The notes under the pieces are model-generated. The model made no database searches and had not been told where the DNA came from. It worked only from the letters and a program-made list of their open reading frames with translations. 64,000 bases of DNA from a virus (taxonomy: Duplodnaviria > Caudoviricetes), in IMG/VR virus record IMGVR_UViG_3300034095_001474, positions 128,001-192,000 of that record; one strand, written 5' to 3'. Below are positions 523 to 32,690 of this stretch, piece by piece (the stretch's first letter is position 1; the number at the start of each line of letters is the position of its first letter). The position numbers and the translations under genes are program-made.

Positions 523-1236
523 TTAAGCTAATCTAAGTGGTCTTAAATAATCTCTAAGAAATGCGTTGACTGGACCACCAATCTTTTCTTCCCAATGTTT
601 ATAGTTAGAAGCATTCTTTTCTTCCAATTGAGACAAAGCTTTCTCAGATGGTTTATGTCTACTATATGGTATTGTTTCTGGAACAAAGTCTGGATACAAC
701 GTTCTATTGAATACCCTTTCATCAACCAAGAACACAAAAGCTGTCAATTGGTCACCCAAATCTGGTTCATGGAACCCTTGCAGATATACACCAACTTCAT
801 GCATCGTATTCATATGAGTATTCAATGTGCCTAATCTTTCTGGGTTGTTGTTGGTAGTACCACCATTAAGAATGATAAAAGTTTTATCTTTGTCAGCCCA
901 TTTTTTATAGATTGCGTTATGTGGATTAATATCTTCAACAGTTCTACCATAATCAACAACAGCATGTCCAAATTGGATACCTTGTTGAATTGGAGACATA
1001 TTGTAAGGTACAAGACCATACATTCTATATTCCAAATACATTTCAGTTTTACGTGGCATTGAATTAGTTTTTACACGACATAACTCAATACGTCTGTAGA
1101 ATTCTTGTACATCAATTTTCTCTTCATAATAAGAGTCAGTATAAAACGCCCAATCAGTTTCCCATGATGACATATCGATTATTCTCATGTTGGCATCTAA
1201 ACACCAATCATATCCAGTTTTAAGTATTTTTTCCAT
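523..1236 (-). CDS. Pth2-fold (peptidyl-tRNA hydrolase-like) protein with an N-terminal extension
   Basis: QQGIQFGHAV...W...KTFIILNGG...FHEPDLGDQLTA follows the Q..HA / W / EPD...TA pattern of phage Pth2-like proteins. Confidence 0.55.
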   Translation of the reverse strand: MEKILKTGYDWCLDANMRIIDMSSWETDWAFYTDSYYEEKIDVQEFYRRIELCRVKTNSMPRKTEMYLEYRMYGLVPYNMSPIQQGIQFGHAVVDYGRTVEDINPHNAIYKKWADKDKTFIILNGGTTNNNPERLGTLNTHMNTMHEVGVYLQGFHEPDLGDQLTAFVFLVDERVFNRTLYPDFVPETIPYSRHKPSEKALSQLEEKNASNYKHWEEKIGGPVNAFLRDYLRPLRLA

Positions 1237-2543
1237 TAGTTTCCTATTTCAATTAAGTGTGATATAGTACATTGTTCTGCTCTATATATAATATATTCGT
1301 TATTTCTTAAATCAGCACCACCTTTAGCAAACACACTGTTATAACCTTCATTGTCCATTACTTTTTGTGATAATTTATAACAGCTAGAATCGTGATGCAG
1401 TATTTCTTTTTCTTTCCCTAAATGAACATCATACAATGCCAAATAAGCTTTATTGTCACCACCATTAGCCCAATAAGAACCTCTCAATGATGAGTAACCA
1501 ATTGATTTCTGTGCTTTATCAGCAAAATAGATACCATCACCAAACATTGAACCAGTATGTACTGCACCAGAAGGTCTGATAAGCAATCCACTTTGCATAA
1601 TGTTAAACCAGTTCTCATTTCTGGAACCATGCCAGTAAAGTCTTTTCTTTTTAACGTCAGCTTTCTCCAAGTTTTTATCAAATTTAACTTGTGTTTTGTT
1701 ATTTCTAACTTTGAACACTTTTTTGATTTGATTAACATTTGAACCCATCAATTTTTTAATAAGTGCTAACATTTCAGTATCGTTTTCAACTTCAACTGTT
1801 AATCCCATTTGGTCAAGGATAGTTACATCTTCAACAACTTCTTCTTCACCTTTGGCTTCAGCTTCAGCAGCTTTTTTAGCAGCATCTCTTTGTTGTTTAA
1901 TCAACTCAACTTGTCCAGCCATCGTATCCAATGCTGATTGTTCATTATCAATCAACCTTTGAGCACTAGTCAAACTACCATCATCCTCAATACCACTAAA
2001 CAAGTAGTCTTTAACATTATCCATTCTTCTTGGGATAATAGTATATAATTTCAATAACATATCATTGATATGTTTGATATCAACACCTATTTGTATCAAC
2101 CCACTAATATTGGTAATAACCTCTTGTGCAGCTCTTACTTGTTGTTCAGATACAGCTTCTTGAGTTACCTTATAGTTTCTTTGGATTGATTTGTTAGCAA
2201 ATGACATTAAATCATCAATCAATTTCTTAACAATATCATCTTTTATGTTCTCAACCTTGTTATCCAATGGTTTTGATTCATCAATAACTGGTTCAGCTAG
2301 TAAATCAGTAACATCAGTATAACCTTTTGTTTTGGATAATTTCTGTTTCAACACACTATCCCACTTGCTGCTAGGTTTATATTCTTCAACCAAAGACTTA
2401 CCAACACGTCCATATTCACATTTGATACGTCCATCTGTCAATTCCTCCATAATATAAACCTTGTTACTGTTTCCAGTACTGCCATTATCCACTGATACGT
2501 GGATAAGTTTGGCATATCTTAAACCATTTTCCTTTGTTATCAT
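1236..2543 (-). CDS. Poly(ADP-ribose) polymerase-like protein (WGR + regulatory helical + catalytic domains)
   Basis: N-terminal CEYGRVG (WGR-like). Catalytic H-Y-E triad motifs: YWHGSR, MFGDGIYFADKAQKSIGY, NNEYIIY. Confidence 0.9.
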   Translation of the reverse strand: MITKENGLRYAKLIHVSVDNGSTGNSNKVYIMEELTDGRIKCEYGRVGKSLVEEYKPSSKWDSVLKQKLSKTKGYTDVTDLLAEPVIDESKPLDNKVENIKDDIVKKLIDDLMSFANKSIQRNYKVTQEAVSEQQVRAAQEVITNISGLIQIGVDIKHINDMLLKLYTIIPRRMDNVKDYLFSGIEDDGSLTSAQRLIDNEQSALDTMAGQVELIKQQRDAAKKAAEAEAKGEEEVVEDVTILDQMGLTVEVENDTEMLALIKKLMGSNVNQIKKVFKVRNNKTQVKFDKNLEKADVKKKRLYWHGSRNENWFNIMQSGLLIRPSGAVHTGSMFGDGIYFADKAQKSIGYSSLRGSYWANGGDNKAYLALYDVHLGKEKEILHHDSSCYKLSQKVMDNEGYNSVFAKGGADLRNNEYIIYRAEQCTISHLIEIGN

Positions 2544-2564
2544 AATAAAACCATTTTAATAATA

Positions 2565-2595
2565 CAAATGTAGCATTATTTTTTTAATAAAACAA
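2565..2595 (-). promoter_or_regulatory. Bacteroidota sigmaA-type promoter (TTG-N20-TACATTTG) upstream of the PARP gene
   Basis: Minus strand reads TTG at 2595-2593 and TACATTTG at 2572-2565, 20 nt apart. Confidence 0.75.
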
Positions 2596-2600
2596 ATTTT

Positions 2601-3089: not shown

Positions 3090-3273
3090 CTTTGAATAGA
3101 TTTGGGTTATTCAACACAAAATTAAAGAAAACTGTTTGTAAACGTGTATCTACCATGAAACCATTCACGTATACAACACCATTTAGTATCTCAATTTCTT
3201 GACCAGCTGGTAATGACATATCTTTGCCAACTTCAGCAGCTTTTAACAGCTTATAAACTCCATTTTTTAACAT
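3070..3273 (-). CDS. Hypothetical protein
   Basis: 67-aa ORF overlapping both neighbours in operon fashion. Confidence 0.55.
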   Translation of the reverse strand: MLKNGVYKLLKAAEVGKDMSLPAGQEIEILNGVVYVNGFMVDTRLQTVFFNFVLNNPNLFKDDTRAW

Positions 3274-4331
3274 ACTATAGTCAATTTAAAGAACATCTCT
3301 CTTACTTTTGTAGAGATGTATTTATTTACTTCTTTTGGTTCTACTTGGTTCTCAACCATAGTATCCATTTCTTCTTTGATAACGTCATTTACAACCCATC
3401 TAATAACATCACCCATCTTTTTAACATCGATTGGTTCTTGGTTAGGAAAAACGTTTTCCAATGCTTGATTAAAACGACTTTCTGTTACAGCGTAATCAAC
3501 AAACTTTTGAATACCATTTAATTTTTCAACATTAACATTCGCAAGTGTTTTAACTTTAGAACTAGAATGTTTTTCACCTTTCACCTTGAACCTATGTGTG
3601 TTACCTTTGAAATCAGCAGTCCAAACAATACCTTCACCAATTCCAGAAAAACCAAATGCTTTAGCAACTGGACATTCTTCTTCAACTTTGATAGTCAAAT
3701 TAGATAAGTCATTTTGTACCAATTGTGGCATATTGAAATCAATATCGATTGAATACGTTGGGTAGTCTTCGATGTTGTAAATATTATCCTCTGGACTAGA
3801 CAAGTAATGAGAAGGAATCCAATATGCTGGTTTAGCTTTCAATTCTTCCTCACTAGATGTATGTGGTGTTACCTTAACACCGAAGATAAAGAAAGATTTA
3901 GGTAAATTGGTAATACCAACACCTTTTTGAATGTTTCCACCACACCATTCACCATAAATAGTAACAGTATTATGTCTTACATCAAATAAATTTAATGAAT
4001 CGATTTGATTTGCAAATTTTCTAAATGCATGTTTCTTTGATTCAACAAAAAATGCAAATCCAGCGTTGTCTTTCTCTACTGTAATAATGTTCTCACGTGA
4101 TTGAGCCCAAAATTCGCTAGAATTTTCATCATAACCATAATCAAAAGATACACCAGCGTTTGTACCATGTAACTTTACTGTACCTTTGAACGTGATAACT
4201 GGTTTTGGTAAAGTTGGGTCATAAATTGCATCACCATTCTCATCCAAACCAACAAAATTGAAATGTCTATTGACATTAGATACAACTGTTCTAAATTGTT
4301 CAATAGACGGAAATTTAATCATTTTTTTCAT
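3267..4331 (-). CDS. RNA ligase, Rnl2-like family
   Basis: Nucleotidyltransferase motifs: I KLHGTN, III YGEWCG, IIIa FFIFGV, IV EGIVW, V FKVK, plus a C-terminal helical domain. Confidence 0.85.
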   Translation of the reverse strand: MKKMIKFPSIEQFRTVVSNVNRHFNFVGLDENGDAIYDPTLPKPVITFKGTVKLHGTNAGVSFDYGYDENSSEFWAQSRENIITVEKDNAGFAFFVESKKHAFRKFANQIDSLNLFDVRHNTVTIYGEWCGGNIQKGVGITNLPKSFFIFGVKVTPHTSSEEELKAKPAYWIPSHYLSSPEDNIYNIEDYPTYSIDIDFNMPQLVQNDLSNLTIKVEEECPVAKAFGFSGIGEGIVWTADFKGNTHRFKVKGEKHSSSKVKTLANVNVEKLNGIQKFVDYAVTESRFNQALENVFPNQEPIDVKKMGDVIRWVVNDVIKEEMDTMVENQVEPKEVNKYISTKVREMFFKLTIVC

Positions 4332-6240: not shown

Positions 6241-6750
6241 TTAAATTGAATCTACCAAAGCTAATTTCAATAAACTTTCCAAATAACCCCACATTTTTTT
6301 TGCAGAGTCTGGTGTATTCAAATACAACGTATCTTTAAACTCTTGGTATTCAGCAGCGTACATATCAATTTTACCACCATGTTCAATATTAGCAATTCTA
6401 TCACCTAATTTCAAAATGATAGCATCTGGGTTACTAGCAGTCTTAGGAAGAGTTTTGGTTTTCTTCTCTGCTCTATTTCTACCCAACTCGTCAGTAACAC
6501 AATAAACCATCTCAGCTATTTCTACACCAAAATGTCTTTTAATCTTGTTGAAAGATATTGCTCCATCCTCTATACTATCATGTAGGTATCCAGCAATTAT
6601 GAATTTGCCACTAAAACCAAATCTTTTCAATACTTCAACAACATCATCCAAGTGTTTCTCATATGGGTAAATTTCATCATATGATTGTGATGCGTGTAAC
6701 TTAACAGCAACCATTCTTGCTTCTTTGTAATCTTTCTCTGTATACATCAT
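6241..6750 (-). CDS. HD-domain (p)ppGpp hydrolase-like protein (SAH/Mesh1 type)
   Basis: PYEKHL...LHDSIED...VTDE...KLGDRIAN matches the RelA/SpoT hydrolase-domain motifs. Confidence 0.85.
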   Translation of the reverse strand: MMYTEKDYKEARMVAVKLHASQSYDEIYPYEKHLDDVVEVLKRFGFSGKFIIAGYLHDSIEDGAISFNKIKRHFGVEIAEMVYCVTDELGRNRAEKKTKTLPKTASNPDAIILKLGDRIANIEHGGKIDMYAAEYQEFKDTLYLNTPDSAKKMWGYLESLLKLALVDSI

Positions 6751-7631: not shown

Positions 7632-8756
7632 TTACAACATTTTATATAATAATTTATCATCGTATTCAAACATAAAGTCTTCAACGCTATTTATTTTGTA
7701 TTGAGCCAATCCGAAATACAATCCAGTGAATTGTTTTACTTCATATTTATCACATACTTCAAATACAGCAGCTGCATACTTTTTTTGTTCTTCTTTTGTG
7801 ATGTTTTTTGGTCTAAGCAATTGTAACTCAACCCAAATAACGTTCAACTTACCAACCAACTCATCGTATCCTTCTTTAAGACGATATAGTTCTTCTGTTC
7901 TTTCTGGGAAAGTAGCAGCAAACTCTTCTATCTCGTTGGTTTTTACGATTGTTAATATGTTGTGTTCAGCAGTTTTACCTTTTAAGTGGTGAACTGCAAC
8001 ATAAGCTGGGTTTTTCACCTTCACACGATTGTCGTTACCATCACGTACTACATATCCTTCTTCAGACCATGGCATGTTTTCAAATGTTTTCAACAAGTGA
8101 CCAACATTTGATGCGTTGATATCAAAAGACTTTACCAATGGTATACCTATTGACACAGCAGCCATTTCTAAGTCTTTTCCAGAAAACTCAACTAGTGTTT
8201 CTCTGTCTCTCACAGTCAATAGTGTTGCTGATGATTCACCATGTGGTTTTACCACTATGTTGTATGGTGTAGTCAACTCAAATACGTATATAAGGTCTTT
8301 GTTCAGTAAACATTCATTGAATGTGTATTTGTTATTTACAGTTTCCCAAAACAAGTCATTAAATGTTGTTCCGTTTTTGTTGTTCACTTCACCTTCACCT
8401 TCAGCAGTACCAGTAGTAGCTGCAAACCATTTTTCTTCATACCAATCCCAATAGACTTGTATCATAGTACCATCCAATTTTTCAAGTACATGTGCAGTAT
8501 TCCAATCTATCTTTGCAGCGTTTCCTTCTTCAGAATTGAAGAATTTACGGAATGCCAACGACATTACGTTCCAAGTATTTTTTTCAAGGATAATTCCACG
8601 ACAATCTTGCATTTCTGGCAAGGCCATAAGTGTTGGTGACACCAATTGGTCATACTTAAAAAGTATTTTACCATCATACTCTCTAGTTTTTAAACTAAAA
8701 GCTTTGATTGTTTTTTCTAATCCGTGTTTTATTAAGTAATTTTGTATCGCTAACAT
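7632..8756 (-). CDS. RNA ligase 1 (T4 Rnl1-like)
   Basis: CRGIILE, FRKFFN, EKLDGTMI (motif I), YVFEL, EGYVV, RVKVKN. Start moved to ATG 8756. Confidence 0.88.
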   Translation of the reverse strand: MLAIQNYLIKHGLEKTIKAFSLKTREYDGKILFKYDQLVSPTLMALPEMQDCRGIILEKNTWNVMSLAFRKFFNSEEGNAAKIDWNTAHVLEKLDGTMIQVYWDWYEEKWFAATTGTAEGEGEVNNKNGTTFNDLFWETVNNKYTFNECLLNKDLIYVFELTTPYNIVVKPHGESSATLLTVRDRETLVEFSGKDLEMAAVSIGIPLVKSFDINASNVGHLLKTFENMPWSEEGYVVRDGNDNRVKVKNPAYVAVHHLKGKTAEHNILTIVKTNEIEEFAATFPERTEELYRLKEGYDELVGKLNVIWVELQLLRPKNITKEEQKKYAAAVFEVCDKYEVKQFTGLYFGLAQYKINSVEDFMFEYDDKLLYKML

Positions 8757-8816
8757 AATATAATTTTTTAATGTTAGACAAAAGTACAAAATAAAAATGA
8801 AATAACAAAATAAAAC

Positions 8817-9194: not shown

Positions 9195-9830
9195 TTACTT
9201 GCAATAATAACTTGTATCAATTCTGATAGTAACACCATATTTTCTTGACAATGCATCAAATCTAGCATCTAACTTCTTGTCAGAACCAAAAGTTTCTTCC
9301 AACTCACCACTTTCATCAACAAAATAAACAACATATGAATTATCACCCCAAGATTTTCTAACAAACTCAACTTTAAGTTCACCTTTGAAATGTTCATCAA
9401 TAACTTTAGAAACATCTTCTTTGATTGCCATAACATCTACATTGTATTTGTAAGCAATTTTCATATCATTCAATGATTCAGATACCAATTTGTTATATTT
9501 ACCAAATCTACCATTTACCAATACTTCCATTGGTTGCCATTTAACCACATGTGGTTCATTGTGTTCTATGGTACCAGAATATTCTGCCAAATAAGTATAA
9601 CCCATAAAACCATCTTTATGTATCGCAAAGATTAACCTTAAATCTGTGATATCCAATCCAGTTTCTTCTTTTGTTTCTCTGATAGCCGTTATTTTTGGGT
9701 CATCATTATCTTCTGGGTCCATCTTACCTCCAGGTAAACCAAAATCATTATGGTCATCTTTTCTTGACACACCCAGAACATACCCTTCTGGGTTTATCAA
9801 TATCACTTGTGCTGATTTATTCACTATCAT
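9195..9830 (-). CDS. NUDIX hydrolase
   Basis: Nudix box GLPGGKMDPED...AIRETKEETGL. Confidence 0.9.
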   Translation of the reverse strand: MIVNKSAQVILINPEGYVLGVSRKDDHNDFGLPGGKMDPEDNDDPKITAIRETKEETGLDITDLRLIFAIHKDGFMGYTYLAEYSGTIEHNEPHVVKWQPMEVLVNGRFGKYNKLVSESLNDMKIAYKYNVDVMAIKEDVSKVIDEHFKGELKVEFVRKSWGDNSYVVYFVDESGELEETFGSDKKLDARFDALSRKYGVTIRIDTSYYCK

Positions 9831-9848
9831 ATTTACTTATTTTTTTTT

Positions 9849-10211
9849 TTAATTTTCAATTAATCCGTTAATAATGTCAGTTAGTACATCTAACTTAATT
9901 GGTTTATCAACAAATTGACTCGCACCAGTTCGCATTGCATGTAATATTTTATAATCATCAGTAACTGCCGTTAAGAATACGATTGGTGTTATTGTGTTTT
10001 GTTTTTTAATTTCATGACACATTTCTATACCATCCATATTTGGCATACGTATATCTGTTATAACAATATCGAATGTTTCTCGTCCAAATTCTAATAAACC
10101 CATAACACCATCAGAAGCTGTAGTTACAATAAAACCATTTTTATTAAAGTAATATGATAAAAATATTAATATATCTTCTTCATCATCCACAATAAGCATT
10201 TTTTTCCCCAT
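9849..10211 (-). CDS. Stand-alone response-regulator receiver (CheY-like)
   Basis: IVDDE acidic pair, phospho-Asp in ITDIRMPNMDG, FLTA, and VDKP lysine-proline. Confidence 0.92.
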   Translation of the reverse strand: MGKKMLIVDDEEDILIFLSYYFNKNGFIVTTASDGVMGLLEFGRETFDIVITDIRMPNMDGIEMCHEIKKQNTITPIVFLTAVTDDYKILHAMRTGASQFVDKPIKLDVLTDIINGLIEN

Positions 10212-14141: not shown

Positions 14142-14190
14142 AATATTTTGTTTATACAAATATACTAAAAAAAATATTGGTTATCAATAG

Positions 14191-14276
14191 CGGAAGAAGT
14201 AGGTCTCGAACCCAATACGGTTTCCCGTACCAATTGATTAGCAATCAACGCTCACACCCCGATGAGTTCATCTTCC
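14191..14276 (-). tRNA. tRNA-Ser(GCT)
   Basis: Cloverleaf with anticodon loop TT-GCT-AA, long variable arm, TTCGAGA T-loop and G73. Confidence 0.9.
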
Positions 14277-14280
14277 ATTG

Positions 14281-14353
14281 TGACCCTACAGAGATTCGAA
14301 CTCCGATTCCACCCTTAGAAGGGGCGTGTCCTATCCAGTTGGACGATAGGGCC
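14281..14353 (-). tRNA. tRNA-Arg(TCT)
   Basis: GGCCCTA/TAGGGTC acceptor, CT-TCT-AA loop, TTCGAAT T-loop. Confidence 0.93.
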
Positions 14354-14356
14354 AGA

Positions 14357-14839: not shown

Positions 14840-14880
14840 ATTTCAATCGTTTATTATAAATATAATATTAATTCGATTTG

Positions 14881-22591: not shown

Positions 22592-22618
22592 TTAAGGAGG
22601 TGCTTTAATCTAATTCAT
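22592..22618 (-). other. Minigene ATG-AAT-TAG-ATT-AAA-GCA-CCT-CCT-TAA (M-N-amber-I-K-A-P-P)
   Basis: Read directly from the sequence; begins 11 nt after the stop codon of the Pth2-like gene. Confidence 0.6.
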
Positions 22619-22629: not shown

Positions 22630-22974
22630 TTAGTTATTGTTATTTTTACCCAATAGAGGACACGAACTAGTAATTTTTTTACTAGCATCAGATGGTTCAA
22701 AAGCTATTGCGGTAATTTCGTTATTGATGTCTGGCTCTCGGAATATAGTATATTTAATTCCTCTGATTGCAGCTTTCTCTGAGAGTTTATATAACTCTTC
22801 CTCATTTGCTACTGTTAATAATGCCAAATAATTTGATTTTGTTTGCCATTCTGACGCTTCTTTAGGATGAGCGTGCTGAAAATCAATGGCAGCATGTGCT
22901 GATTGCACTGCTTGTGTTGGTAATGATAAGTCACGTCTTGTGACAACTCTTAATTTTGAAATCTAATTTTTCAT
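22630..22974 (-). CDS. Pth2-like peptidyl-tRNA hydrolase with an in-frame TAG at codon 4
   Basis: ATG AAA AAT TAG ATT TCA ... gives MKN*ISKLRVVTRRDLSLPTQAVQSAHA...W...L..V.....L......FREPDINNEITAIA. The conserved first strand lies upstream of the annotated GTG start at 22908. Confidence 0.75.
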
Positions 22975-23024
22975 TTTCTTTTTTATATAAATATATCACT
23001 TTTTTTAAAAAGGTAAACCTTTTG

Positions 23025-23095
23025 TGGTCTTAGAGGGAATCGAACCCTCACTATCGGTTTTAGAGACCGTTACGCTGCCGTTACATCATAAGACC
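23025..23095 (-). tRNA. Amber-suppressor tRNA (anticodon CTA)
   Basis: GGTCTTA/TAAGACC acceptor with A73; ACGGT CT-CTA-AA ACCGA arm; GAGGG TTCGATT CCCTC T arm. Confidence 0.9.
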
Positions 23096-23107
23096 AAATC
23101 TATAGTG

Positions 23108-23138
23108 CAAATATACTAAAGATTTTTTAATTTGTCAA
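23108..23138 (-). promoter_or_regulatory. Bacteroidota-type promoter of the tRNA-CUA gene
   Basis: TTG-N20-TATATTTG. Confidence 0.72.
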
Positions 23139-24301: not shown

Positions 24302-24334
24302 TAAAAAAAAAAGCCCATCATATGATGAGCTTTT
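24302..24334 (-). terminator. Intrinsic terminator closing the ncRNA cluster
   Basis: AAAAGCTCATCATATGATGGGC followed by poly-T. Confidence 0.8.
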
Positions 24335-24340
24335 AATAAT

Positions 24341-24424
24341 GTCAGAATAGTTTTGGGAATTGAACCCTTTCATCTAAATTTATGCAAATTTTAATTTAAC
24401 CTTAGTTTTGCTGAAACTATCCTT
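24341..24424 (-). ncRNA. Y-RNA (Yrl)-like RNA A with a tRNA T-arm
   Basis: 5' AGGATAGTTT pairs with 3' AAACTATTCT; TCAGCAA follows the 5' strand; GGG-TTCAATT-CCC T-arm. Confidence 0.6.
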
Positions 24425-24430
24425 TCTTTG

Positions 24431-24501
24431 TAGCGTAGCGTGGAGTCGAACCACCCTTCAAGGTTATGAGCCTCATGTGCAACCACTTACACCATAACGC
24501 A
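24431..24501 (-). tRNA. tRNA-Met(CAT), mismatched acceptor stem (initiator-like or degenerate)
   Basis: TGAGG CT-CAT-AA CCTTG arm and TTCGACT T-loop; unpaired 1:72 and further acceptor-stem mismatches. Confidence 0.65.
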
Positions 24502-24506
24502 ATATG

Positions 24507-24584
24507 TGCCCTAGACTGGCTACGAACCAATTATCCCATAGATACCTTTCGATACCCATCTGATAAAGTCTAAACTTCTAGGAC
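24507..24584 (-). ncRNA. tRNA-like RNA with a GAAA tetraloop in place of an anticodon loop
   Basis: 8-bp acceptor GTCCTAGA/TCTAGGGC plus A; TTGG-TTCGTAG-CCAG T arm; central ATGGGTATC-GAAA-GGTATCTAT hairpin. Confidence 0.55.
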
Positions 24585-24588
24585 ATTG

Positions 24589-24659
24589 TTGGCCAAAATC
24601 TGTTTTTTTTTTCTTTTAAGTATAGATAGTTTTAATTGCTGAAAAGATTTTTTTGCCAA
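24589..24659 (-). ncRNA. Y-RNA-like RNA B (minimal)
   Basis: TTGGC...AAAATCT pairs with AGATTTT...GCCAA; TTTCAGCAA follows the 5' strand. Confidence 0.5.
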
Positions 24660-24670
24660 TATTGTTATCA

Positions 24671-24923
24671 CAAGATGATTGTTTGCTTTTTTCATCCCAG
24701 CGGATTAACCCATTTTACGTCTTCGGCTTTGCTTTGGCGAGAGTCTACTGTTGTTCGACTACATCCTACTTGCACCTTTTGGGGTGGTCTGACGTTGACT
24801 TTTGTTTTCATTGGAAGTCTTACCATGTTATCTATATCCGTTGTTTGACAATGTTTTCACATTCTCTCACATACCATTTAGATTCTATCATAGTTTGTAT
24901 TTTTTGGTTGCAGAACCCATCTT
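24671..24923 (-). ncRNA. Y-RNA-like RNA C (about 250 nt)
   Basis: 5' AAGATGGGTTCTGCAACCAAAAAA; the 3' end ATCATCTTG closes the stem. GC-richer non-coding interior, with promoter (24974-25004) and boxA (24946-24956) upstream. Confidence 0.55.
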
Positions 24924-25027
24924 TCTTGATAATATTTTTAATAAATTAAAGAACGTTTTGAAATAAATATATACAAATGTACGAACACTTTATTGTTTTG
25001 TCAACTAAAACATCAATTATTTTTAAT

Positions 25028-25924: not shown

Positions 25925-26303
25925 TGGTGGAGTATTGGGGAGTCGAACCCCAGTGTTGAATATTCTTCAATGCTTTCTACATGTTTATCTAGTTTCTAAT
26001 CCTAGCAAAGTTGTGCTACGTTATTTATACCGATGGAGGTGCAGCGACCATCGTTGCTAATTTTTACAACTAAGAAATGTTGGTTCTTGGTGGATTACCA
26101 CTATCGGTGGACTTTACCACCATTTGCAATATTAGGCTACTGCAAGCTCTCCGTTAGAAACGAATGTCGCTTCATCTAGGAAATTTTCTGATACGATAAA
26201 ATCGTTGTCAATTCAAATTTTAATAGACAGATTTAAGTGCTTCCAATCTAGCACTACATGCTTACTACCTACGACTATATTCAGTCAATACCATTAATAC
26301 CCC
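25925..26303 (-). ncRNA. ssrA: tmRNA; tag reading frame 26209-26132 encodes (A)DNDFIVSENFLDEATFVSNGELAVA
   Basis: 5' GGGGTATTAATGGTATTGAC and 3' GGGGTTCGACTCCCC-AATACTCC-ACCA; G3:U alanine identity pair; TGAATT precedes the resume codon; 25-codon ORF ending in TAA. Confidence 0.93.
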
Positions 26304-26418
26304 ATAAAATTAAAGAACGTGTTTAATAAATACGTGGGTTTCGGTTAAAAAACCCACTTATTTAATTTCTTATTACAAATGTACGAACATTATTTTGATT
26401 ATGCAAGTTTTTTTGTAA

Positions 26419-27144
26419 TTATTTTTTAGCTTTAACAATTTTATTTGTTATAATACCATCGATAATACCATAAGCTTTAGCTTCATCAGCATTCAACCAC
26501 ATATCACGATTTGTGTCTTCCAATACTTGTGCTGGGTCTTTATCAGTATATTCACCTAATAATCTGAACAACTCAGTATTGTATTTTTCACCTTCAGCAA
26601 TAGAAACACGAATATCTTGTAAGTTACCTTGTGCACCAGTTGATACTTGATGTAACATTACTCTACTATGAGCAAGACTATAACGTTTCCCTTTTGTACC
26701 AGCACCCAATAAGATACTTCCCATACTTGCTGCCATACCAGTGTTGATTGTAACTAAATCAGATGAGATGTAGTTCATAACGTCAACGATTGATAGACCG
26801 CTTTTAACGCTTCCTCCTGGACTATCGACATGCAGTGTGATGTCTTTTACTTCTAAGTTATCCAAGAACATTAGCTGTGCTTGTACAACTGTACTCATTC
26901 TGTCGTTAACTGGACCAGCTAACCAGATAATTCTATCCATCATCAAACGTGAGAAGATATCCATCTGTGTTACACGTAATTCTCTTTCTTCAAGAATATA
27001 TGGTGTTAATGATGAAGAAGGAACCATAAGTGAAGCTTGCGACCCATAAAGTTTTTCTTGCATTTGTTCCCATTGGTAATATTCCATTGAGGAAACTCCC
27101 ATATGCTTAATAGCATAGTCTCTAAATTCGTTATTTAAATCCAT
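26419..27144 (-). CDS. clpP: ATP-dependent Clp protease proteolytic subunit
   Basis: MDIFSRLMMDRIIWL, DSPGGSV, MAASMGS (Ser), RVMLHQ (His), NRDMWL (Asp). Confidence 0.96.
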   Translation of the reverse strand: MDLNNEFRDYAIKHMGVSSMEYYQWEQMQEKLYGSQASLMVPSSSLTPYILEERELRVTQMDIFSRLMMDRIIWLAGPVNDRMSTVVQAQLMFLDNLEVKDITLHVDSPGGSVKSGLSIVDVMNYISSDLVTINTGMAASMGSILLGAGTKGKRYSLAHSRVMLHQVSTGAQGNLQDIRVSIAEGEKYNTELFRLLGEYTDKDPAQVLEDTNRDMWLNADEAKAYGIIDGIITNKIVKAKK

Positions 27145-27952: not shown

Positions 27953-28978
27953 CTAATTAGTTTGATGTGTTGCAACATTTTTTGTTAATTTTTCTTTTAA
28001 ATCGATAATTATCGATTTAACTTCATCATCAACACTTTTTGGCATATAAACGCCCAATGTAATCAATAAGTCACCTCTACCATCTTTACCGTATGTTTTT
28101 ATACCTTTATAAGGGATTCTAAGGTTGTTTCCAACATCACTATACTCTGGAATACTAATTCTTATTTTAGAACCCTCTATCGTCTCTATTTCGATTTTAT
28201 CACCCAATACTAATTGAGGATAAGATAACTTTAAGTTCATTTTTAAATCAGAACCAGACCTAGTGTATGTTTTATGTGGTGCTTCATGAATTTTTATATG
28301 TAAATCACCTTCATTACCACCCTTTACCCCATGACCTTTACCAGACATAACAAATGTCATTCCTTCTATAACCCCAGCTGGTATATCAACTTCAACATTT
28401 TCAACTGTATCAACCAAACCATAACCACTACATGTTTTACATTCTTTGGTATAAGAATTACCTATACCATTACATGCAGTACATGTAGTTACTTGTTGAA
28501 TTTGACCCATTGGTGTGTTGTATATATTTACAACATGTCCACTACCACCACACATAGAACAATCAACAATATCTTCACCACCATGACCTTTACAAGTTCC
28601 ACATTTTGCTTTTCTATTATATTTGTATGTTTTTTTAGTACCAGTAAATATTTCTTCAAGTGTTAATTTAACTAGAAGTGACATATCGGCACCAACGATA
28701 GTTTGAGGTTGGGTATGAAAACCACCACGGAAATGGTTTCTACCACCAAATGGTGAACCTTGTTGATTACCATTTGAATGACCAAATCTATCGTATTTAT
28801 TTTTCTTATCTGAATCTGACAATGTATCATAAGCTTCAGATATCTCTTTAAATTTATCTTCAGACCCACCTTTATCTGGATGATGCTCTTTTGCTAGCTT
28901 TCTATAAGATTTTTTAATTTCATCAGATGTAGCACCTTTTTTAAGTCCTAAGACTTCATAATAATCTTTTTTGCTCAT
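27953..28978 (-). CDS. dnaJ: DnaJ chaperone
   Basis: J domain with HPD, four CxxCxGxG repeats and a C-terminal domain. Confidence 0.96.
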   Translation of the reverse strand: MSKKDYYEVLGLKKGATSDEIKKSYRKLAKEHHPDKGGSEDKFKEISEAYDTLSDSDKKNKYDRFGHSNGNQQGSPFGGRNHFRGGFHTQPQTIVGADMSLLVKLTLEEIFTGTKKTYKYNRKAKCGTCKGHGGEDIVDCSMCGGSGHVVNIYNTPMGQIQQVTTCTACNGIGNSYTKECKTCSGYGLVDTVENVEVDIPAGVIEGMTFVMSGKGHGVKGGNEGDLHIKIHEAPHKTYTRSGSDLKMNLKLSYPQLVLGDKIEIETIEGSKIRISIPEYSDVGNNLRIPYKGIKTYGKDGRGDLLITLGVYMPKSVDDEVKSIIIDLKEKLTKNVATHQTN

Positions 28979-30658: not shown

Positions 30659-30928
30659 TTAATTGTTTAAGTATTCCTCGAATTTAACTTCTTGGATTAT
30701 ATCTTTTTTATTTATTTTAACTAGCGATTCATTGCTCACAAAATGTTCAACAATAAGCTCATTTATTCTGGATTCTTTATTTTTTTCACCGTATTCGGTA
30801 AAACCGTTTAGTTTAACGTCACCACCACCTTGGTTCAATATCAAATAAATTAGATATTCTGTGATAACTTTTTCACCATCCATGGTGCTTTTTAATTTGT
30901 CAATTTCTTTTACAACAATTCTTTTCAT
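30659..30928 (-). CDS. Hypothetical protein
   Basis: 89-aa ORF. Confidence 0.5.
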   Translation of the reverse strand: MKRIVVKEIDKLKSTMDGEKVITEYLIYLILNQGGGDVKLNGFTEYGEKNKESRINELIVEHFVSNESLVKINKKDIIQEVKFEEYLNN

Positions 30929-31040
30929 TCGTCTTTCTTTAAATATAATGTTATGTATTAAATAATAAACAATAGTATCGATTTTTTTTCATAGTGTAAA
31001 CACTAAAAACAAAAAAACCCCACAATTGTGAGGCTTTTTA

Positions 31041-31217
31041 ATGACTTGTTACAAGATACGGGGGCATTTACTTCAAACCCAGTTAAGAAGTTTTCCAATT
31101 TTATAAAAATAGAGGTTTTGGGAACCTACGTGGAATCTTTCGATTCACTTTCCATGTATATAATTGTTTTTTTTAAGTTTTTTGGTTGCAGAATGCATCT
31201 TTTAAAAAACAAGTCAT
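31041..31217 (-). ncRNA. Y-RNA-like RNA D, directly downstream of the TROVE/DUF2828 gene
   Basis: Outer 10-bp stem ATGACTTGTT/AACAAGTCAT; 5' AAGATGCATTCTGCAACCAAAAAA pairs with 3' GTATCTTG; terminators on both sides (31013-31037 and 31219-31256). Confidence 0.6.
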
Positions 31218-31262
31218 AAAAAAGAGGGATGGGTCATTTAACCATACATCCCTCTTAATATT

Positions 31263-32690
31263 TTAAATAGTTACTGGTGCGTAACGCTCAGAGTCAATAA
31301 CACTCAACATCATAGATATTGGAGTCATGTCTTTACCAGCTAATAAATTAGTAAGCAATGCTGGAGAGAAACCAGATACCAACGCAGTACCTTCTTTATC
31401 AAATTGTACTGGTTTGTTATTATCTCCTCTTGATTGGATGTTCCAATATACTAACTTAGGCATTGTGTACCCAGCTTGAGTATAAAGAGACTCAACCATA
31501 TCTTGAGCAGTCCACCCACGAACACTACCACAATTGAATTCCATGTCTGACAACATAAGAATCATTGTTGGCATTTCTTCTGGTGCAACATTTGACTCAA
31601 CAGCTTTGTTTAAAAGCATTCTAAACGCTTTTTCAACATTAGTATCATATCCAACTGGCCCTTGAATTTGTCTGTATCTCTCAGACAAACTACCTTTAAG
31701 GTATTGTAATGTTGGGTTAGATGTAAACGTAATGAATGCATCTTTGAAAGGACCTTCGTTTCTTTCTGAAATGTATAACCCCAAAGAGATTGCTACATCC
31801 ATACAAGTTACGTTAGCGTTGTTCCCAGCTGGAGTACCCATTGACCCAGAAACATCCACCATTGGTAAAAGTCTCTCGTTGTTACCTTCCATGTAGTTAG
31901 GCAACGCATCCCATTGTACGTTAGCACCTTTGGTGTTACCAGTTTTCATGTTTTTAACGATGTCGTATGGATATACTGCACCAGCATTTATTTTAGCCTC
32001 ACCTTTCTCAACACTTGTCAAGTAAGCTTGGAAACGCTCTAAATCATTTTTAGAGAATGCTTTCATCAAATCACTCATTGCTTTTGATGGCAATTTAGAG
32101 TATTCAATTTTAGTCCACTCTTTTGAACACATTAATTGCTCAACAGTGTTAGAGTTTTCAACCAATAACTTACGGTAATCTTTTGGTGTTAACCCTAAGT
32201 ATTTTCTAAGAGCAGAAGCTTGTCTTTTCTTGTCACGGTTACCAACGTTTGGACGTGGCATCCATTTAGCACAAAGACCGTTTTTATCTTCCAACCCTTT
32301 AGCGATGTAACCCAACGCTGCGTTTTCTAATGGTGTACCAACCAAAACCAAAAGGTCATCCCATCTACCGTACTCAGCAAATAAACCTAAGTTTTTCGCA
32401 AGAGATTCAGTACGATTCTCAGACAAGTAAGTAACGATATCTCTAAAGATTTGTCTCTCACCAGCACCACCTCTTACGTCACGAGCCCAGAATAATAAAC
32501 GCATAGCATTTAAAGGATTCTCAGAATAAGCTTTTGTAAACGCATTGATAAGACGAGTCTTATCTTGACCTCTCATCGCACCAATTTGGAAGAACAAGTC
32601 AACACAAAGGTTTAAAGATGAAGAGTTAGTTACCATTCCGTTTTCAGTTAACGAATTTTTTGTTTGCATAGCTTTTAATAATGTACTCAT
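31263..32690 (-). CDS. DUF2828-type TROVE/Ro60-like protein with a vWA domain
   Basis: TENG...NSSS...VDLFFQIG, ARDVRGGAGER, EYGRWDDL, AKWMPR, YPYDIV, VDVSGSM (MIDAS), LSDMEF, VYWN, VSGFS. Confidence 0.85.
   Translation of the reverse strand: MSTLLKAMQTKNSLTENGMVTNSSSLNLCVDLFFQIGAMRGQDKTRLINAFTKAYSENPLNAMRLLFWARDVRGGAGERQIFRDIVTYLSENRTESLAKNLGLFAEYGRWDDLLVLVGTPLENAALGYIAKGLEDKNGLCAKWMPRPNVGNRDKKRQASALRKYLGLTPKDYRKLLVENSNTVEQLMCSKEWTKIEYSKLPSKAMSDLMKAFSKNDLERFQAYLTSVEKGEAKINAGAVYPYDIVKNMKTGNTKGANVQWDALPNYMEGNNERLLPMVDVSGSMGTPAGNNANVTCMDVAISLGLYISERNEGPFKDAFITFTSNPTLQYLKGSLSERYRQIQGPVGYDTNVEKAFRMLLNKAVESNVAPEEMPTMILMLSDMEFNCGSVRGWTAQDMVESLYTQAGYTMPKLVYWNIQSRGDNNKPVQFDKEGTALVSGFSPALLTNLLAGKDMTPISMMLSVIDSERYAPVTI

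What the first reader, a model, noticed from the sequence alone, without database searches (positions are those of the whole stretch)
523..32690. Integrated translation-rescue region: sense, replace, repair, recycle, degrade
One 32-kb region holds a tRNA-status sensor (attenuator), replacement tRNAs, tRNA repair and CCA enzymes, two Pth-like proteins (one amber-gated), tmRNA with ClpP, DnaJ and SlyD, an alarmone hydrolase, tRNA mimics and a Ro/Y-like RNP. Most parts have precedents in large phages. The cis-regulatory wiring visible here suggests an inducible response to tRNA-targeting abortive defences (inference).
Basis: inference. Interest (0 to 1): 0.65.

Follow-up and report, generated by a model that had tools for sequence, protein, structure and literature searches.

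The report
Jumbo-phage translation-upkeep block with two switches
A roughly 360-kb lake phage keeps tRNAs, RNA-repair enzymes, ribosome-rescue parts and chaperones in one conserved early gene block; the gene kinds are known from giant phages, but two built-in switches look new: a leader-peptide sensor in front of the tRNA genes, and a hydrolase gene that only the phage's own amber-suppressor tRNA can unlock.

Summary
Every listed part is in the sequence: 14 tRNA or tRNA-like genes, Rnl1, an Rnl2-type ligase, a kinase-CPD healing enzyme, a CCA-adding enzyme, two Pth2-fold proteins, tmRNA beside ClpP, DnaJ, an FKBP/SlyD, an alarmone-hydrolase-type HD protein, a Ro60-fold protein with an adjacent structured RNA, and a leader-peptide attenuator.

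It is not one wired regulon. I count 17 separate host-type promoters. The block also holds unrelated genes: a DNA ligase, NAD/ADP-ribose enzymes, a homing endonuclease and more than 20 unknowns. This gene set is already described for jumbo phages (PMC7824862, PMC7162821).

Only two units show conditional control.
- **Attenuator.** A trp-style attenuator whose leader, MRTINIHMISISNWRRNSH, spells the amino acids of the downstream tRNAs (P about 9e-10). It is conserved in about 18 relatives, and the antiterminator covaries with the terminator. This scan had already reported such attenuators elsewhere in the same genome.
- **Amber module.** It comprises a tRNA-CUA, a Pth2-like gene with TAG at codon 2-5, and an amber mini-ORF ending Pro-Pro-stop. 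The amber start is present in 60 of 65 dereplicated loci from diverse huge phages, none of which show general TAG recoding.

A link to anticodon-nuclease defences is untested. General tRNA shortage explains the switches equally well.

The parts
523..1236 (-). Second Pth2-fold protein (237 aa, no amber codon). Its start overlaps the end of the PARP-like gene.
   Evidence: hhalign against the Pth2-like family A1: probability 91%, E 1e-6, residues 79-174. phrog_3668 'hydrolase'. Conserved in 5 relatives.
1236..2543 (-). PARP-like ADP-ribosyltransferase. This is NAD/ADP-ribose biology, not translation rescue as such.
   Evidence: Pfam PARP, E 2.4e-27. Promoter at 2565-2595.
3267..4331 (-). Rnl2-type RNA ligase (PF09414)
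   Evidence: Pfam RNA_ligase, E 9.8e-12
6241..6750 (-). Stand-alone HD_4 protein of the small-alarmone-hydrolase / Mesh1 type
   Evidence: Pfam HD_4, 43.5 bits. Sequence matches to solved structures: Lmo0812, MESH1, a small alarmone hydrolase and Rel hydrolase domains.
7632..8789 (-). T4-type RNA ligase 1
   Evidence: Pfam RNA_lig_T4_1, E 5.4e-16. 72-93% identical copies lie at the same relative place in 5 relatives.
9195..10211 (-). NUDIX hydrolase (9195-9830) plus a stand-alone receiver domain (9849-10211). Jumbo phages are reported to carry a divergent receiver linked to NAD/ADP-ribose enzymes; this pair may be that type, but membership of that divergent receiver family was not tested.
   Evidence: Pfam NUDIX and Response_reg. 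The linkage is described in PMC7824862.
10553..11455 (-). P-loop kinase plus a 2H/CPD-like domain: an RNA end-healing enzyme of the Trl1 type rather than the T4 Pnk type
   Evidence: Pfam AAA_33, E 2.2e-7. tRNA_lig_CPD scores 23.8 bits against a cut-off of 23. Found near Pth2 in 7 loci.
14190..16678 (-). tRNA array: His, Trp, Ser(TGA), Ile(GAT)-like, CAT, Asn x3, Met(CAT), Arg(ACG), Arg(TCT), Ser(GCT). It is interrupted by an HNH homing endonuclease (15369-15962) and small ORFs.
   Evidence: ARAGORN and Rfam. PHROG HNH, E 4.6e-30. 12 of the window's 14 tRNA genes lack an encoded CCA.
16862..17098 (-). Leader-peptide attenuator: promoter 17068-17098; uORF 17017-16919 (MRTINIHMISISNWRRNSHHNGQGMLNDIIEW); terminator 16893-16870 followed by a T-run
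   Evidence: Sequence and terminator scan. 19 of 20 leader codons fall in the array's amino-acid set, P 9e-10, and the leader uses the rare codons TCG and CGC. Conserved in about 18 loci. 1:2 pairing is seen in the free fold. The antiterminator covaries with the terminator arm.
20437..21552 (-). CCA-adding enzyme / poly(A) polymerase family nucleotidyltransferase
   Evidence: Pfam PolyA_pol, E 1.2e-35, plus the RNA-binding domain. Within 10 kb of Pth2-like in 28 of 66 loci.
21632..22048 (-). FKBP-type prolyl isomerase (SlyD-like)
   Evidence: Pfam FKBP_C, E 2.5e-22
22592..22618 (-). Amber mini-ORF: ATG AAT TAG ATT AAA GCA CCT CCT TAA (M-N-amber-I-K-A-P-P-stop), 11 nt after the Pth2-like stop codon
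   Evidence: Sequence. The same pattern (amber, then an ending of PP- or GP-stop) lies within 160 nt of the Pth2-like stop in 12 of 65 loci, against 0.11 expected. It is the only such ORF in the window.
22630..22974 (-). Pth2-like gene with an in-frame TAG as codon 4 (22965-22963)
   Evidence: Pfam PTH2, 39.2 bits over profile positions 2-103 once the TAG is read through. AF2 plus Foldseek: TM 0.71-0.79 to archaeal Pth2 and human Bit1, with strand beta-1 at residues 8-13. The amber start is conserved in 60 of 65 dereplicated loci.
23024..23138 (-). Amber-suppressor tRNA (anticodon CUA, 23024-23095) with its own host-type promoter (23108-23138). It lies 50 nt upstream of the Pth2-like ATG and has no encoded CCA.
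   Evidence: ARAGORN, and Rfam at 60.1 bits. Promoter. 3' end. A same-strand tRNA-CUA is present in 54 of the 60 amber loci.
24309..25004 (-). Non-coding RNA unit, in order: promoter 24974-25004; element C 24668-24930; element B 24591-24657 (weak); tRNA-like 24506-24584; Met-like tRNA 24430-24501; element A 24343-24425; terminator 24309-24334
   Evidence: Sequence and folds. A homologous unit with a true tRNA-Pro is present in L001.
25925..26406 (-). tmRNA (25925-26303) with its own promoter (26376-26406). The tag ends ...GELAVA.
   Evidence: Rfam RF00023, 60.1 bits, and ARAGORN. The clpP-then-tmRNA order is kept in every clade locus that has ClpP. Related tags end GELAVA or GEVAVA.
26419..27144 (-). 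ClpP protease subunit
   Evidence: Pfam CLP_protease, E 2.3e-58
27953..28978 (-). DnaJ with J domain, zinc-finger domain and C-terminal domain
   Evidence: Pfam DnaJ, DnaJ_CXXCXGXG and DnaJ_C
31012..31216 (-). Structured ncRNA (element D, 31042-31216) with paired 5' and 3' ends, followed by terminator 31012-31039. It lies directly 3' of the Ro60-like gene.
   Evidence: Found in the same place in 7 relatives. RNAalifold: 20 pairs, 10 of them with compensatory changes. The MFE fold keeps both closing stems, z -2.1.
31263..32690 (-). Ro60-fold protein (helical ring plus vWA domain with a DxSxS motif), assigned to Pfam DUF2828 + DUF7788
   Evidence: Pfam. phrog_850 'RNA-binding protein', E 3.9e-150. 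AF2 mean pLDDT 91.6. Foldseek's top 13 hits are all Ro60/TROVE, including the Thermus phage phiLo Ro60. D301, S303 and S305 are invariant.

Best explanation
The region is the early, host-promoter-driven 'translation upkeep' arm of a roughly 360-kb Bacteroidota-type jumbo phage.

It is a syntenic mosaic of at least 17 short, independently promoted units, not one operon or regulon. The units supply:
- tRNAs;
- tRNA maturation and repair (CCA enzyme, Rnl1, Rnl2-type ligase, kinase-CPD);
- ribosome rescue and proteolysis (tmRNA next to ClpP);
- chaperones (DnaJ, FKBP);
- an alarmone-hydrolase-type enzyme;
- a Ro60-fold protein with its neighbouring RNA.

Two units carry real conditional control.

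1. tRNA array attenuator. The array lies behind a trp-style multivalent attenuator. If ribosomes stall on leader codons read by the array's tRNAs (including the rare TCG and CGC), segment 2 is freed and pairs with the 5' arm of the terminator, so transcription runs on into the tRNA genes. If ribosomes read the leader quickly, or if it is not translated at all, the terminator forms.

2. Amber module. It has three parts: tRNA-CUA, a Pth2-like gene with TAG at codon 2-5, and a mini-ORF with TAG that ends Pro-Pro-stop. The Pth2-fold protein is made only when processed, CCA-tailed and charged suppressor tRNA outcompetes release factor 1. Its output therefore tracks suppressor activity.

Shown here: the anatomy, its conservation, the covariation and the folds. 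Inferred: the stalling logic, read-through of the TAG, and the enzyme's substrate. Not shown: what triggers the switches. General tRNA shortage and a tRNA-targeting defence would both work.
For: - Parts.
- Many units: TTG-N20-TAnnTTTG occurs 24 times against 2.3 +/- 1.4 expected. 17 copies lie on the coding strand at 2.5-34 kb, each just upstream of a gene or RNA.
- Block synteny: CCA is within 10 kb of Pth2-like in 28 of 66 loci, ClpP in 23 and DnaJ in 14. Rnl1 and the second Pth2-like gene lie at the same relative places in 5 relatives.
- Attenuator: 19 of 20 leader codons match the array's amino-acid set, P 9e-10. TCG makes up 3% of phage Ser codons and CGC about 0% of Arg codons. The leader is identical or nearly so in about 18 loci in which the neighbouring protein is only 39-68% identical. 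1:2 pairing appears in every free fold. The segment 2 / terminator-arm duplex averages -11.6 kcal/mol against -5.4 +/- 2.3 for shuffles, and it ranks first for the lineage-specific terminators. Unrelated leader/array matches occur in L042, L046 and L055.
- Amber module: 60 of 65 dereplicated loci have ATG, then 1-4 codons, then TAG, and it is always TAG. 54 of these have a same-strand tRNA-CUA, 27 of them within 250 nt. The base after the TAG is a purine in 60 of 60. The mini-ORF is present in 12 of 65 loci against 0.11 expected.
- No general recoding.
- Fold: strand beta-1 follows the TAG directly, so a later start would truncate the fold.
- CCA: 12 of 14 tRNA genes lack an encoded CCA.
Against: - There is no expression, ribosome-profiling or tRNA data of any kind.
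- MFE folding keeps the terminator in most masked states. The antiterminator appears as the MFE structure in only 2 of 18 loci, so the switch rests on complementarity and covariation, not on thermodynamics.
- The Pth2-like family lacks the GKGK lysine, and its RDAG.T motif is replaced by REPD..N. Peptidyl-tRNA hydrolase activity is therefore not assured.
- The amino acid inserted at TAG is unknown. L078/79 carry Gln at that position, which is only a hint.
- No SmpB or ClpX was found in 0-34 kb.
- Synteny within one clade can reflect descent alone.
Confidence: 0.62

Rival explanations
1. The whole 32 kb is one integrated, inducible counter-defence regulon aimed at tRNA-targeting abortive-infection nucleases: it senses tRNA loss, replaces and repairs tRNAs, recycles peptidyl-tRNA and degrades stalled products.
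For: - The gene set matches the published counter-defence toolkit of jumbo phages (PMC7824862).
- Phage tRNAs are shown to defeat anticodon nucleases, retron effectors and PARIS (PMC10264068, PMC11555353, PMC11464382).
- The attenuator would respond to tRNA cleavage.
Against: - There are 17 separate promoters of one host type, with no shared conditional element.
- Only two units are conditionally controlled.
- The block also holds a DNA ligase, PARP/ART/NUDIX/receiver genes, an HNH endonuclease, peptidases and more than 20 unknowns.
- The CCA enzyme has a housekeeping explanation.
- In distant phages only the tRNA-CUA/Pth2-like pair stays linked.
- No defence system or host is known for this phage.
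Confidence: 0.2
2. Suppressor-centred reading. The amber-suppressor tRNA is the primary agent, for example to disturb host termination or to time phage expression. The nearby rescue and proteostasis genes (Pth2-like, tmRNA with its own ...AVA tag, ClpP, DnaJ, FKBP) exist to cope with, or to exploit, read-through products and non-stop ribosomes. The amber gate scales Pth2-like output to suppressor activity.
For: - The tRNA-CUA/amber-Pth2-like pair is the one linkage kept across diverse huge phages.
- The phage itself uses TAG rarely: 5 of 85 ORF stops.
- The clpP-tmRNA pair with a non-canonical tag end is conserved.
- The mini-ORF ends Pro-Pro-stop. From my own knowledge of Hayes, Bose and Sauer 2002 (not checked here), that ending slows termination and provokes tmRNA tagging.
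Against: - No clients of the suppressor other than the Pth2-like gene and the mini-ORF are seen in 64 kb.
- ClpP-tmRNA lies near Pth2-like in only one clade.
- There is no evidence on host stop-codon use.
Confidence: 0.13
3. No functional integration and no gate. The clustering is inherited gene order in an accessory arm, and the TAG in the Pth2-like gene is a pseudogene lesion, an assembly error or a mis-called start.
For: - Synteny is clade-limited.
- Code-11 gene callers do give truncated 92-106 aa products.
Against: - TAG, and never TAA or TGA, is kept at codon 2-5 in 60 of 65 independent loci, down to about 45% protein identity, while the flanking codons vary.
- The codon after the TAG is often not a possible start codon (GTT, GTA, GGC, ACT).
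- The beta-1 strand needed for the fold lies between the TAG and the first alternative start.
- The suppressor tRNA co-occurs with the gene.
Confidence: 0.05

Closest known systems
RNA-repair / ribosome-rescue toolkit of jumbo and huge phages (Iyer et al. 2021, PMC7824862; Al-Shayeb et al. 2020, PMC7162821)
   Same: The same gene kinds: many tRNAs, Rnl1 and Rnl2 ligases, kinase and phosphoesterase healing enzymes, a CCA-adding enzyme, a TROVE-like protein, PTH2, an HD alarmone phosphodiesterase, a NUDIX gene beside a receiver-domain gene, ADP-ribosyltransferases and tmRNA.
   Different: In the passages I searched, those surveys list genes. I found no mention of a leader-peptide attenuator on tRNA arrays, an amber codon at the start of PTH2 tied to a suppressor tRNA, an amber/Pro-Pro-stop mini-ORF, or the clpP-tmRNA pairing with an ...AVA tag.
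Multivalent leader-peptide attenuators of enterobacterial amino-acid operons (trp, his, ilvGMEDA, thr); recalled from my own knowledge
   Same: A short leader ORF rich in the relevant codons, four RNA segments with 1:2, 2:3 and 3:4 pairings, and an intrinsic terminator.
   Different: The regulated genes are tRNAs rather than biosynthetic enzymes. The leader covers seven amino acids at once. The host is a Bacteroidota-type cell and the element is viral.
Stop-codon-recoded (code 15) phages with suppressor tRNAs (Borges et al., bioRxiv 10.1101/2021.08.26.457843; Peters et al. 2022, PMC9523058)
   Same: A phage-encoded tRNA-CUA, a low-GC genome with TAG depleted as a stop, and the idea that suppressor supply gates translation.
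   Different: Here there is no genome-wide recoding. In 64 kb the only clients seen are one Pth2-like gene, with the TAG always within the first five codons, and one mini-ORF.
T4 Rnl1 + Pnk repair of PrrC-cleaved tRNA-Lys (recalled from my own knowledge; cited in PMC7824862)
   Same: An Rnl1-family ligase and a 5'-kinase are present in a T4-like (Gp23 capsid) phage.
   Different: The healing enzyme pairs the kinase with a 2H/CPD-like domain (Trl1-like) instead of the T4 3'-phosphatase. The genes are about 2 kb apart in separate units. No cognate nuclease is known.
Ro60-Y RNA particles of bacteria and phages (Chen et al. 2014, PMC4201824; Thermus phage phiLo Ro60, PMC12135203)
   Same: A ring-plus-vWA fold, with a structured ncRNA whose ends pair encoded next to the gene, and tRNA-like RNAs nearby.
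   Different: The protein belongs to Pfam DUF2828/DUF7788, not TROVE. The RNA does not match Rfam Y_RNA or YrlA. Binding is untested.
Lambda bar minigenes, and C-terminal Pro-Pro termination stalling (recalled from my own knowledge, not checked here)
   Same: A two-codon ORF (M-N-stop when unsuppressed), and an ending in Pro-Pro-stop when suppressed. Both kinds of ORF are known to load cells with peptidyl-tRNA or to provoke tmRNA tagging.
   Different: Here both features are combined in one mini-ORF, switched by an amber codon and placed 4-22 nt after a Pth2-like gene.

Membership tests
Leader-peptide transcription attenuator (trp/his/ilv type) | Short translated leader enriched in codons tied to the regulated product | tested here: met
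   19 of 20 codons fall in the array's amino-acid set, P 9e-10, and the leader uses the rare TCG and CGC
Leader-peptide transcription attenuator (trp/his/ilv type) | Intrinsic terminator between the leader and the regulated genes | tested here: met
   Stem plus T-run at 16893-16862. Present in all 18 related leaders.
Leader-peptide transcription attenuator (trp/his/ilv type) | Mutually exclusive antiterminator that overlaps the 5' arm of the terminator | tested here: inconclusive
   Complementarity covaries with the terminator arm (duplex -11.6 against -5.4 kcal/mol for shuffles). However, the MFE structure shows the antiterminator in only 2 of 18 masked folds.
Leader-peptide transcription attenuator (trp/his/ilv type) | The regulated genes encode amino-acid biosynthesis enzymes | tested here: not met
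   The downstream genes are a small ORF and 12 tRNA genes. It works like an attenuator but is a new use of one.
Pth2 peptidyl-tRNA hydrolase (PF01981) | Profile match above the curated cut-off | tested here: met
   39.2 bits against 23, profile positions 2-103 of 115
Pth2 peptidyl-tRNA hydrolase (PF01981) | Pth2 alpha/beta fold | tested here: met
   TM 0.71-0.79, rmsd 2.1-3.2 A, to 2zv3, 3erj, 1q7s, 1wn2 and 1xty
Pth2 peptidyl-tRNA hydrolase (PF01981) | Catalytic residues reported for archaeal Pth2: the Lys of GKGK and the Asp/Thr of RDAG.T (recalled from my own knowledge) | tested here: not met
   The aligned positions read SLPTQ and REPD..N. The family's own invariant residues are H27, D31, R79-E80-P81-D82 and T88.
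Pth2 peptidyl-tRNA hydrolase (PF01981) | Hydrolysis of peptidyl-tRNA | not testable with these tools
   Needs an enzyme assay
Ro60 / TROVE with Y RNA | TROVE sequence family (PF05731) | tested here: not met
   Pfam gives DUF2828 + DUF7788 only. There is no sequence hit to solved Ro60 chains.
Ro60 / TROVE with Y RNA | Helical-repeat ring plus a vWA domain with a MIDAS motif | tested here: met
   Foldseek's top 13 hits are all Ro60, E 5e-10 to 2.5e-6, TM 0.53-0.59 for most chains (0.33-0.59 overall), full length. D301, S303 and S305 are invariant.
Ro60 / TROVE with Y RNA | Neighbouring ncRNA with paired 5' and 3' ends | tested here: met
   Element D lies 3' of the gene in 8 loci. Two closing stems; 10 of 20 pairs are compensatory.
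Ro60 / TROVE with Y RNA | The RNA matches the Y_RNA or YrlA models or carries the Ro-binding helix | tested here: not met
   The only match is a sub-threshold YrlA hit that lies on the tRNA-Asn repeats.
tmRNA trans-translation system | tmRNA gene above the Rfam gathering score, with a tag reading frame | tested here: met
   RF00023 at 60.1 bits against 47. ARAGORN tag ...GELAVA.
tmRNA trans-translation system | Phage-encoded SmpB partner | tested here: not met
   No SmpB hit among all minus-strand ORFs of 60 aa or more in 0-34 kb. The rest of the genome was not available.
Code-15 (TAG-recoded) phage | Many genes with in-frame TAG, and coding density that rises when TAG is read as sense | tested here: not met
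   The gain from reading TAG as sense is about the same as from reading TGA as sense, in the window and in 80 loci. Only one N-terminal amber gene is present in 64 kb.
T4 Pnk-Rnl1 tRNA repair pair | Rnl1-family ligase | tested here: met
   PF09511, E 5.4e-16
T4 Pnk-Rnl1 tRNA repair pair | Bifunctional kinase plus HAD-type 3'-phosphatase | tested here: not met
   The kinase domain is joined to a tRNA_lig_CPD-like domain that scores at the cut-off. There are no matches to solved structures.
Small alarmone hydrolase (RelA/SpoT HD domain) | HD_4 profile match and similarity to solved SAH/Mesh1 structures | tested here: met
   43.5 bits against 27.2. 4yf1, 5vxa, 6z3o and others.

The most novel reading that the evidence does not exclude
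The trio of tRNA-CUA, an amber-started Pth2-like gene and an amber/Pro-Pro-stop mini-ORF is an autonomous translational feedback circuit carried by standard-code huge phages. On this reading the suppressor exists mainly to gate, and be tuned by, a Pth2-fold enzyme that acts on the suppressor's own acyl- or peptidyl-tRNA, or that senses RF1 competition or peptidyl-tRNA drop-off. Together with the leader-peptide attenuators on the tRNA arrays, the phage would then measure the state of the host's translation system directly and adjust its own tRNA supply. That would be a regulatory layer not described for viruses.
Probability: 0.35. Interest if true: 0.85.

Novelty: new variant of a known kind. 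Interest (0 to 1): 0.6.

Why it matters
**What is known.** The gene content is ordinary for jumbo phages. As a catalogue, the finding adds a well-resolved member of a known toolkit.

**What appears new.** The control logic looks new, and it can be tested directly.
- tRNA genes placed under ribosome-mediated attenuation would be a way for a virus to read tRNA availability codon by codon. I found no paper on this in the library searched.
- A single gene gated by a co-encoded amber suppressor, conserved across dozens of otherwise unrelated huge phages that keep the standard code, gives a function to phage suppressor tRNAs outside code reassignment. It also shows that code-11 annotation routinely truncates this gene.

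**Wider relevance.** Both devices bear on the open question of why phages carry tRNAs: codon supply or counter-defence. They would also supply natural parts for synthetic control by tRNA level or by suppression.

Tried and rejected
- **General TAG recoding: rejected.** ORF coverage gains from reading TAG as sense are about the same as from reading TGA as sense, in the window and in 80 loci. Only one N-terminal amber gene is present in 64 kb.
- **Re-initiation at the codon after the TAG: rejected.** That codon is GTT, GTA, GGC, GGA, AGA or ACT in many loci.
- **u139 (22089-22508) as the second Pth-like protein: rejected.** hhalign probability is 0.1%. The second copy is 523-1236.
- **Rfam T-box, leader or Y RNA families.** Nothing reached threshold. 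The Phe_leader hit (E = 1) and the YrlA hit are below threshold, and the YrlA hit lies on the tRNA-Asn repeats.
- **Element B as a structured RNA: not supported.** z is about 0.
- **Close phage relatives in GenBank.** None; only short matches at 69-75% identity to ClpP and DnaJ genes of huge uncultured phages and Lak phages.
- **Whole genome.** None is held for this window.
- **The look-up of encoding contigs was closed.** The DNA behind the protein hits could not be fetched, so IMG/VR loci were used instead.
- **Unknown ORFs.** Pfam at E <= 5 and PHROGs gave nothing useful for about 20 small ORFs.
- **Literature.** I found no paper on amber-gated PTH2 or on attenuator-controlled tRNA genes. 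The library is incomplete, so this is not proof of absence.

Full report
**Setting**

The window has about 31% GC. Nearly all of its genes lie on the minus strand. It ends in a T4-type Gp23 capsid fragment.

A promoter motif of the Bacteroidota type, TTG-N20-TAnnTTTG, occurs 24 times against 2.3 +/- 1.4 expected. Seventeen copies lie on the coding strand between 2.5 and 34 kb, each just upstream of a gene or RNA.

No genome is held for this window, and GenBank phages hold no close relative. IMG/VR holds relatives whose CheckV completeness implies genomes of about 360 kb.

**Check of the parts**

- tRNAs and tmRNA. ARAGORN and Rfam find a 12-gene tRNA array at 14190-16678: His, Trp, Ser-TGA, an Ile-GAT-like gene, two CAT tRNAs, three Asn, Arg-ACG, Arg-TCT and Ser-GCT. 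They also find a tRNA-CUA at 23024-23095, a Met-like tRNA at 24430-24501 and a tmRNA at 25925-26303.
- Proteins. Pfam identifies an Rnl2-type ligase, Rnl1, a kinase with a CPD-like domain, a CCA-adding enzyme, an FKBP, PTH2, ClpP, DnaJ and an HD_4 protein. The HD_4 protein matches solved small alarmone hydrolases and Mesh1.
- Second Pth-like protein. It is 523-1236, which explains the finding's left border (hhalign probability 91%).
- Ro-like protein. The DUF2828/DUF7788 protein (31263-32690) gives a confident AlphaFold model (pLDDT 91.6). Its 13 best structural matches are all Ro60, among them the Ro60 of Thermus phage phiLo. It keeps a DxSxS motif.

The same 32 kb also carries an ATP-dependent DNA ligase, PARP-like and ART enzymes, a NUDIX gene beside a stand-alone receiver-domain gene, an HNH homing endonuclease inside the tRNA array, two peptidases and more than 20 unknown ORFs. 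Iyer et al. describe a divergent receiver linked to NAD/ADP-ribose enzymes. Whether this receiver belongs to that divergent type was not tested.

**Is it one system?**

Anchoring on the Pth2-like gene, I fetched 80 IMG/VR loci.

- Within a clade of roughly 25-30 contigs, the order Ro-like ... DnaJ - metallopeptidase - ClpP - tmRNA ... tRNA-CUA - Pth2-like ... CCA ... leader - tRNA array - kinase-CPD is kept.
- Rnl1 and the second Pth2-like gene keep their places in five relatives.
- clpP is followed by the tmRNA in every clade locus that has ClpP. The tags end GELAVA or GEVAVA rather than LAA.
- In more distant phages the block dissolves, and only the tRNA-CUA/Pth2-like pair stays together.

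With 17 separate promoters of one type, this is a conserved early arm of independent units. It is not a wired regulon.

The gene kinds, and the idea that they answer attacks on the translation apparatus, are already published (PMC7824862; PMC7162821).

**Switch 1: the attenuator**

After the promoter at 17068-17098 comes a 32-codon ORF, 17017-16919: MRTINIHMISISNWRRNSHHNGQGMLNDIIEW. Next come a strong terminator (16893-16870 plus a T-run), a 66-aa ORF and the tRNA array.

- Codon match. Of codons 2-21, 19 encode amino acids served by the array. From the phage's own composition, P is about 9e-10. The leader uses TCG twice and CGC once, which make up 3% and about 0% of the phage's Ser and Arg codons.
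- Conservation. The first 19 residues are identical or nearly so in about 18 distinct relatives, although the next protein is only 39-68% identical. The tail of the leader differs between lineages.
- Pairing 1:2. Free folds pair ATTAACATAC (segment 1) with GTATG.TTAAT (segment 2) in all loci.
- Pairing 2:3. Segment 2 also complements the 5' arm of the terminator, and it changes when the terminator changes. The self duplex averages -11.6 kcal/mol against -5.4 +/- 2.3 for shuffles. It ranks first for the lineage-specific arms of L001, L015, L036 and the window.
- Caveat. MFE folding with masked ribosome footprints mostly keeps the terminator, so the switch is inferred from covariation, not from energy.
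- Independent cases. Unrelated leaders that spell the amino acids of their own arrays occur in L042, L046 and L055.

Earlier notes of this scan report the same device at other arrays of this genome. I did not re-test those.

**Switch 2: the amber module**

Fifty nucleotides after the tRNA-CUA the sequence reads ATG AAA AAT TAG ATT TCA AAA TTA AGA GTT GTC.

- Read-through is needed for the fold. With the TAG read through, the PTH2 profile match runs from profile position 2, three residues after the TAG. The model has strand beta-1 at residues 8-13 and superposes on archaeal Pth2 and human Bit1 at TM 0.71-0.79.
- Protein homologues. All 221 either carry a 'Q' at position 2-7 or are truncated code-11 calls.
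- DNA evidence. Of 65 dereplicated loci, 60 read ATG, then 1-4 codons, then TAG. The stop is never TAA or TGA. The neighbouring codons vary, and the next base is a purine in 60 of 60.
- Suppressor linkage. 54 of the 60 have a same-strand tRNA-CUA within 10 kb, and 27 have it within 250 nt, either before or after the gene.
- No general recoding. The loci and the window show none.
- Mini-ORF. A third part follows the gene by 4-22 nt: a mini-ORF with its own TAG that ends Pro-Pro-stop or Gly-Pro-stop. In the window it is M-N-TAG-I-K-A-P-P-stop at 22618-22592. It is present in 12 of 65 loci against 0.11 expected.
- Inserted residue. L078/79 have Gln where the others have TAG, a weak hint at the residue inserted.
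- Activity. The family lacks the Lys and the Asp/Thr that I recall as catalytic in archaeal Pth2, and it has its own invariant H, D and REPD residues. Fold membership is met. Enzymatic identity is open.

**Ro-like protein and RNAs**

Directly 3' of the Ro-like gene lies a 175-nt RNA with two nested closing stems. It is found at the same place in seven relatives, with compensatory changes in 10 of 20 predicted pairs.

A separate promoter-to-terminator unit at 25004-24309 holds further elements, listed here in window coordinates (they are transcribed in the reverse of this order):
- element A: 10-bp closing stem, z -2.0;
- a Met-like tRNA;
- a rod-like tRNA mimic at 24506-24584, z -4.2;
- element B: no support;
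- a 263-nt element C.

None matches the Rfam Y RNA models. This fits a Ro/Y-type particle in form. Binding is untested.

**Reading**

The best-supported account is an early 'translation upkeep' arm built of independent modules, two of which sense translation status.

Twelve of the 14 tRNA genes, the suppressor included, lack an encoded CCA. The CCA enzyme may therefore simply mature phage tRNAs.

The attenuator would respond to any shortage of the matching charged tRNAs. A defence nuclease is one possible cause among several: host shut-off, codon demand or starvation would do the same.

**Limits**

- There are no expression data.
- No host is known.
- Only 64 kb of about 360 kb was seen.
- Loci were limited to +/-10 kb flanks, so co-occurrence beyond that distance was checked only in five contigs.

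Noticed in passing
window 25342-25410 (+), terminator 25426-25453 (+): A 22-codon ORF on the opposite strand, MGCGCGKPKTNTTPPPPPPPSE, with seven consecutive prolines. It is followed by a terminator shared with the convergent gene. A near-identical ORF with eight prolines is present in L001 (about 300-362, opposite strand).
   Followed up: partly
window 15369-15962 (-): An HNH homing endonuclease with an N-terminal HTH sits inside the tRNA array (PHROG E 4.6e-30). Relatives carry it at varying places in the array, which suggests a mobile insertion.
   Followed up: partly
window 523-2543 (-): A PARP-like ADP-ribosyltransferase and the second Pth2-fold protein overlap by one base and share a promoter (2565-2595). 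An ART paired with a Pth2-fold hydrolase may point to an RNA- or tRNA-directed ADP-ribosylation cycle.
   Followed up: no
window 9195-10211 (-): A NUDIX gene next to a stand-alone receiver domain resembles the receiver/NAD-ADP-ribose linkage described for jumbo phages in PMC7824862. I did not test whether this receiver is of that divergent type. The pair probably belongs to NAD/ADP-ribose conflict systems rather than to translation rescue.
   Followed up: partly
window 25925-26303 (-) and related loci: Phage tmRNA tags in this clade are often long (up to 25-31 residues) and end GELAVA or GEVAVA rather than the usual ALAA. The tmRNA always follows a phage clpP. No SmpB or ClpX was seen in 0-34 kb.
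   Followed up: partly
window about 22566-22590 (-): A direct repeat, TAGGACAT x2, lies between the amber mini-ORF and the next gene. Similar doubled words (TAGACA / TTGGACA) occur at the same place in L001, L002, L003 and L009. It may be an operator or a processing site.
   Followed up: no
window 14190-24501: 3' ends of the tRNA genes: 12 of the 14 tRNA genes lack an encoded CCA. Most are followed by C-A-A-type trailers. Only one tRNA-Asn and tRNA-His encode CCA.
   Followed up: yes
window 16000-16080 (-): A tRNA-Ile(GAT)-like gene carries an extra stretch of about 10-20 nt in the variable region. Rfam scores it at 40 bits and ARAGORN misses it. L001 has a normal tRNA-Ile(GAT) at the equivalent place.
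   Followed up: no
loci L042, L046, L055: Unrelated huge-phage contigs carry different short ORFs upstream of tRNA arrays. Each spells the amino acids of its own array. For example, MITTLTYSPFQLPQTQLCEELFY precedes an array serving Cys, Glu, Phe, Leu, Pro, Gln, Thr and Tyr.
   Followed up: partly
protein database hits P0002-P0121: Public gene calls for this Pth2-like family are either truncated at an internal GTG/ATG (92-106 aa) or translated with Q at the TAG. Standard code-11 annotation therefore mis-calls this gene as a matter of routine.
   Followed up: yes
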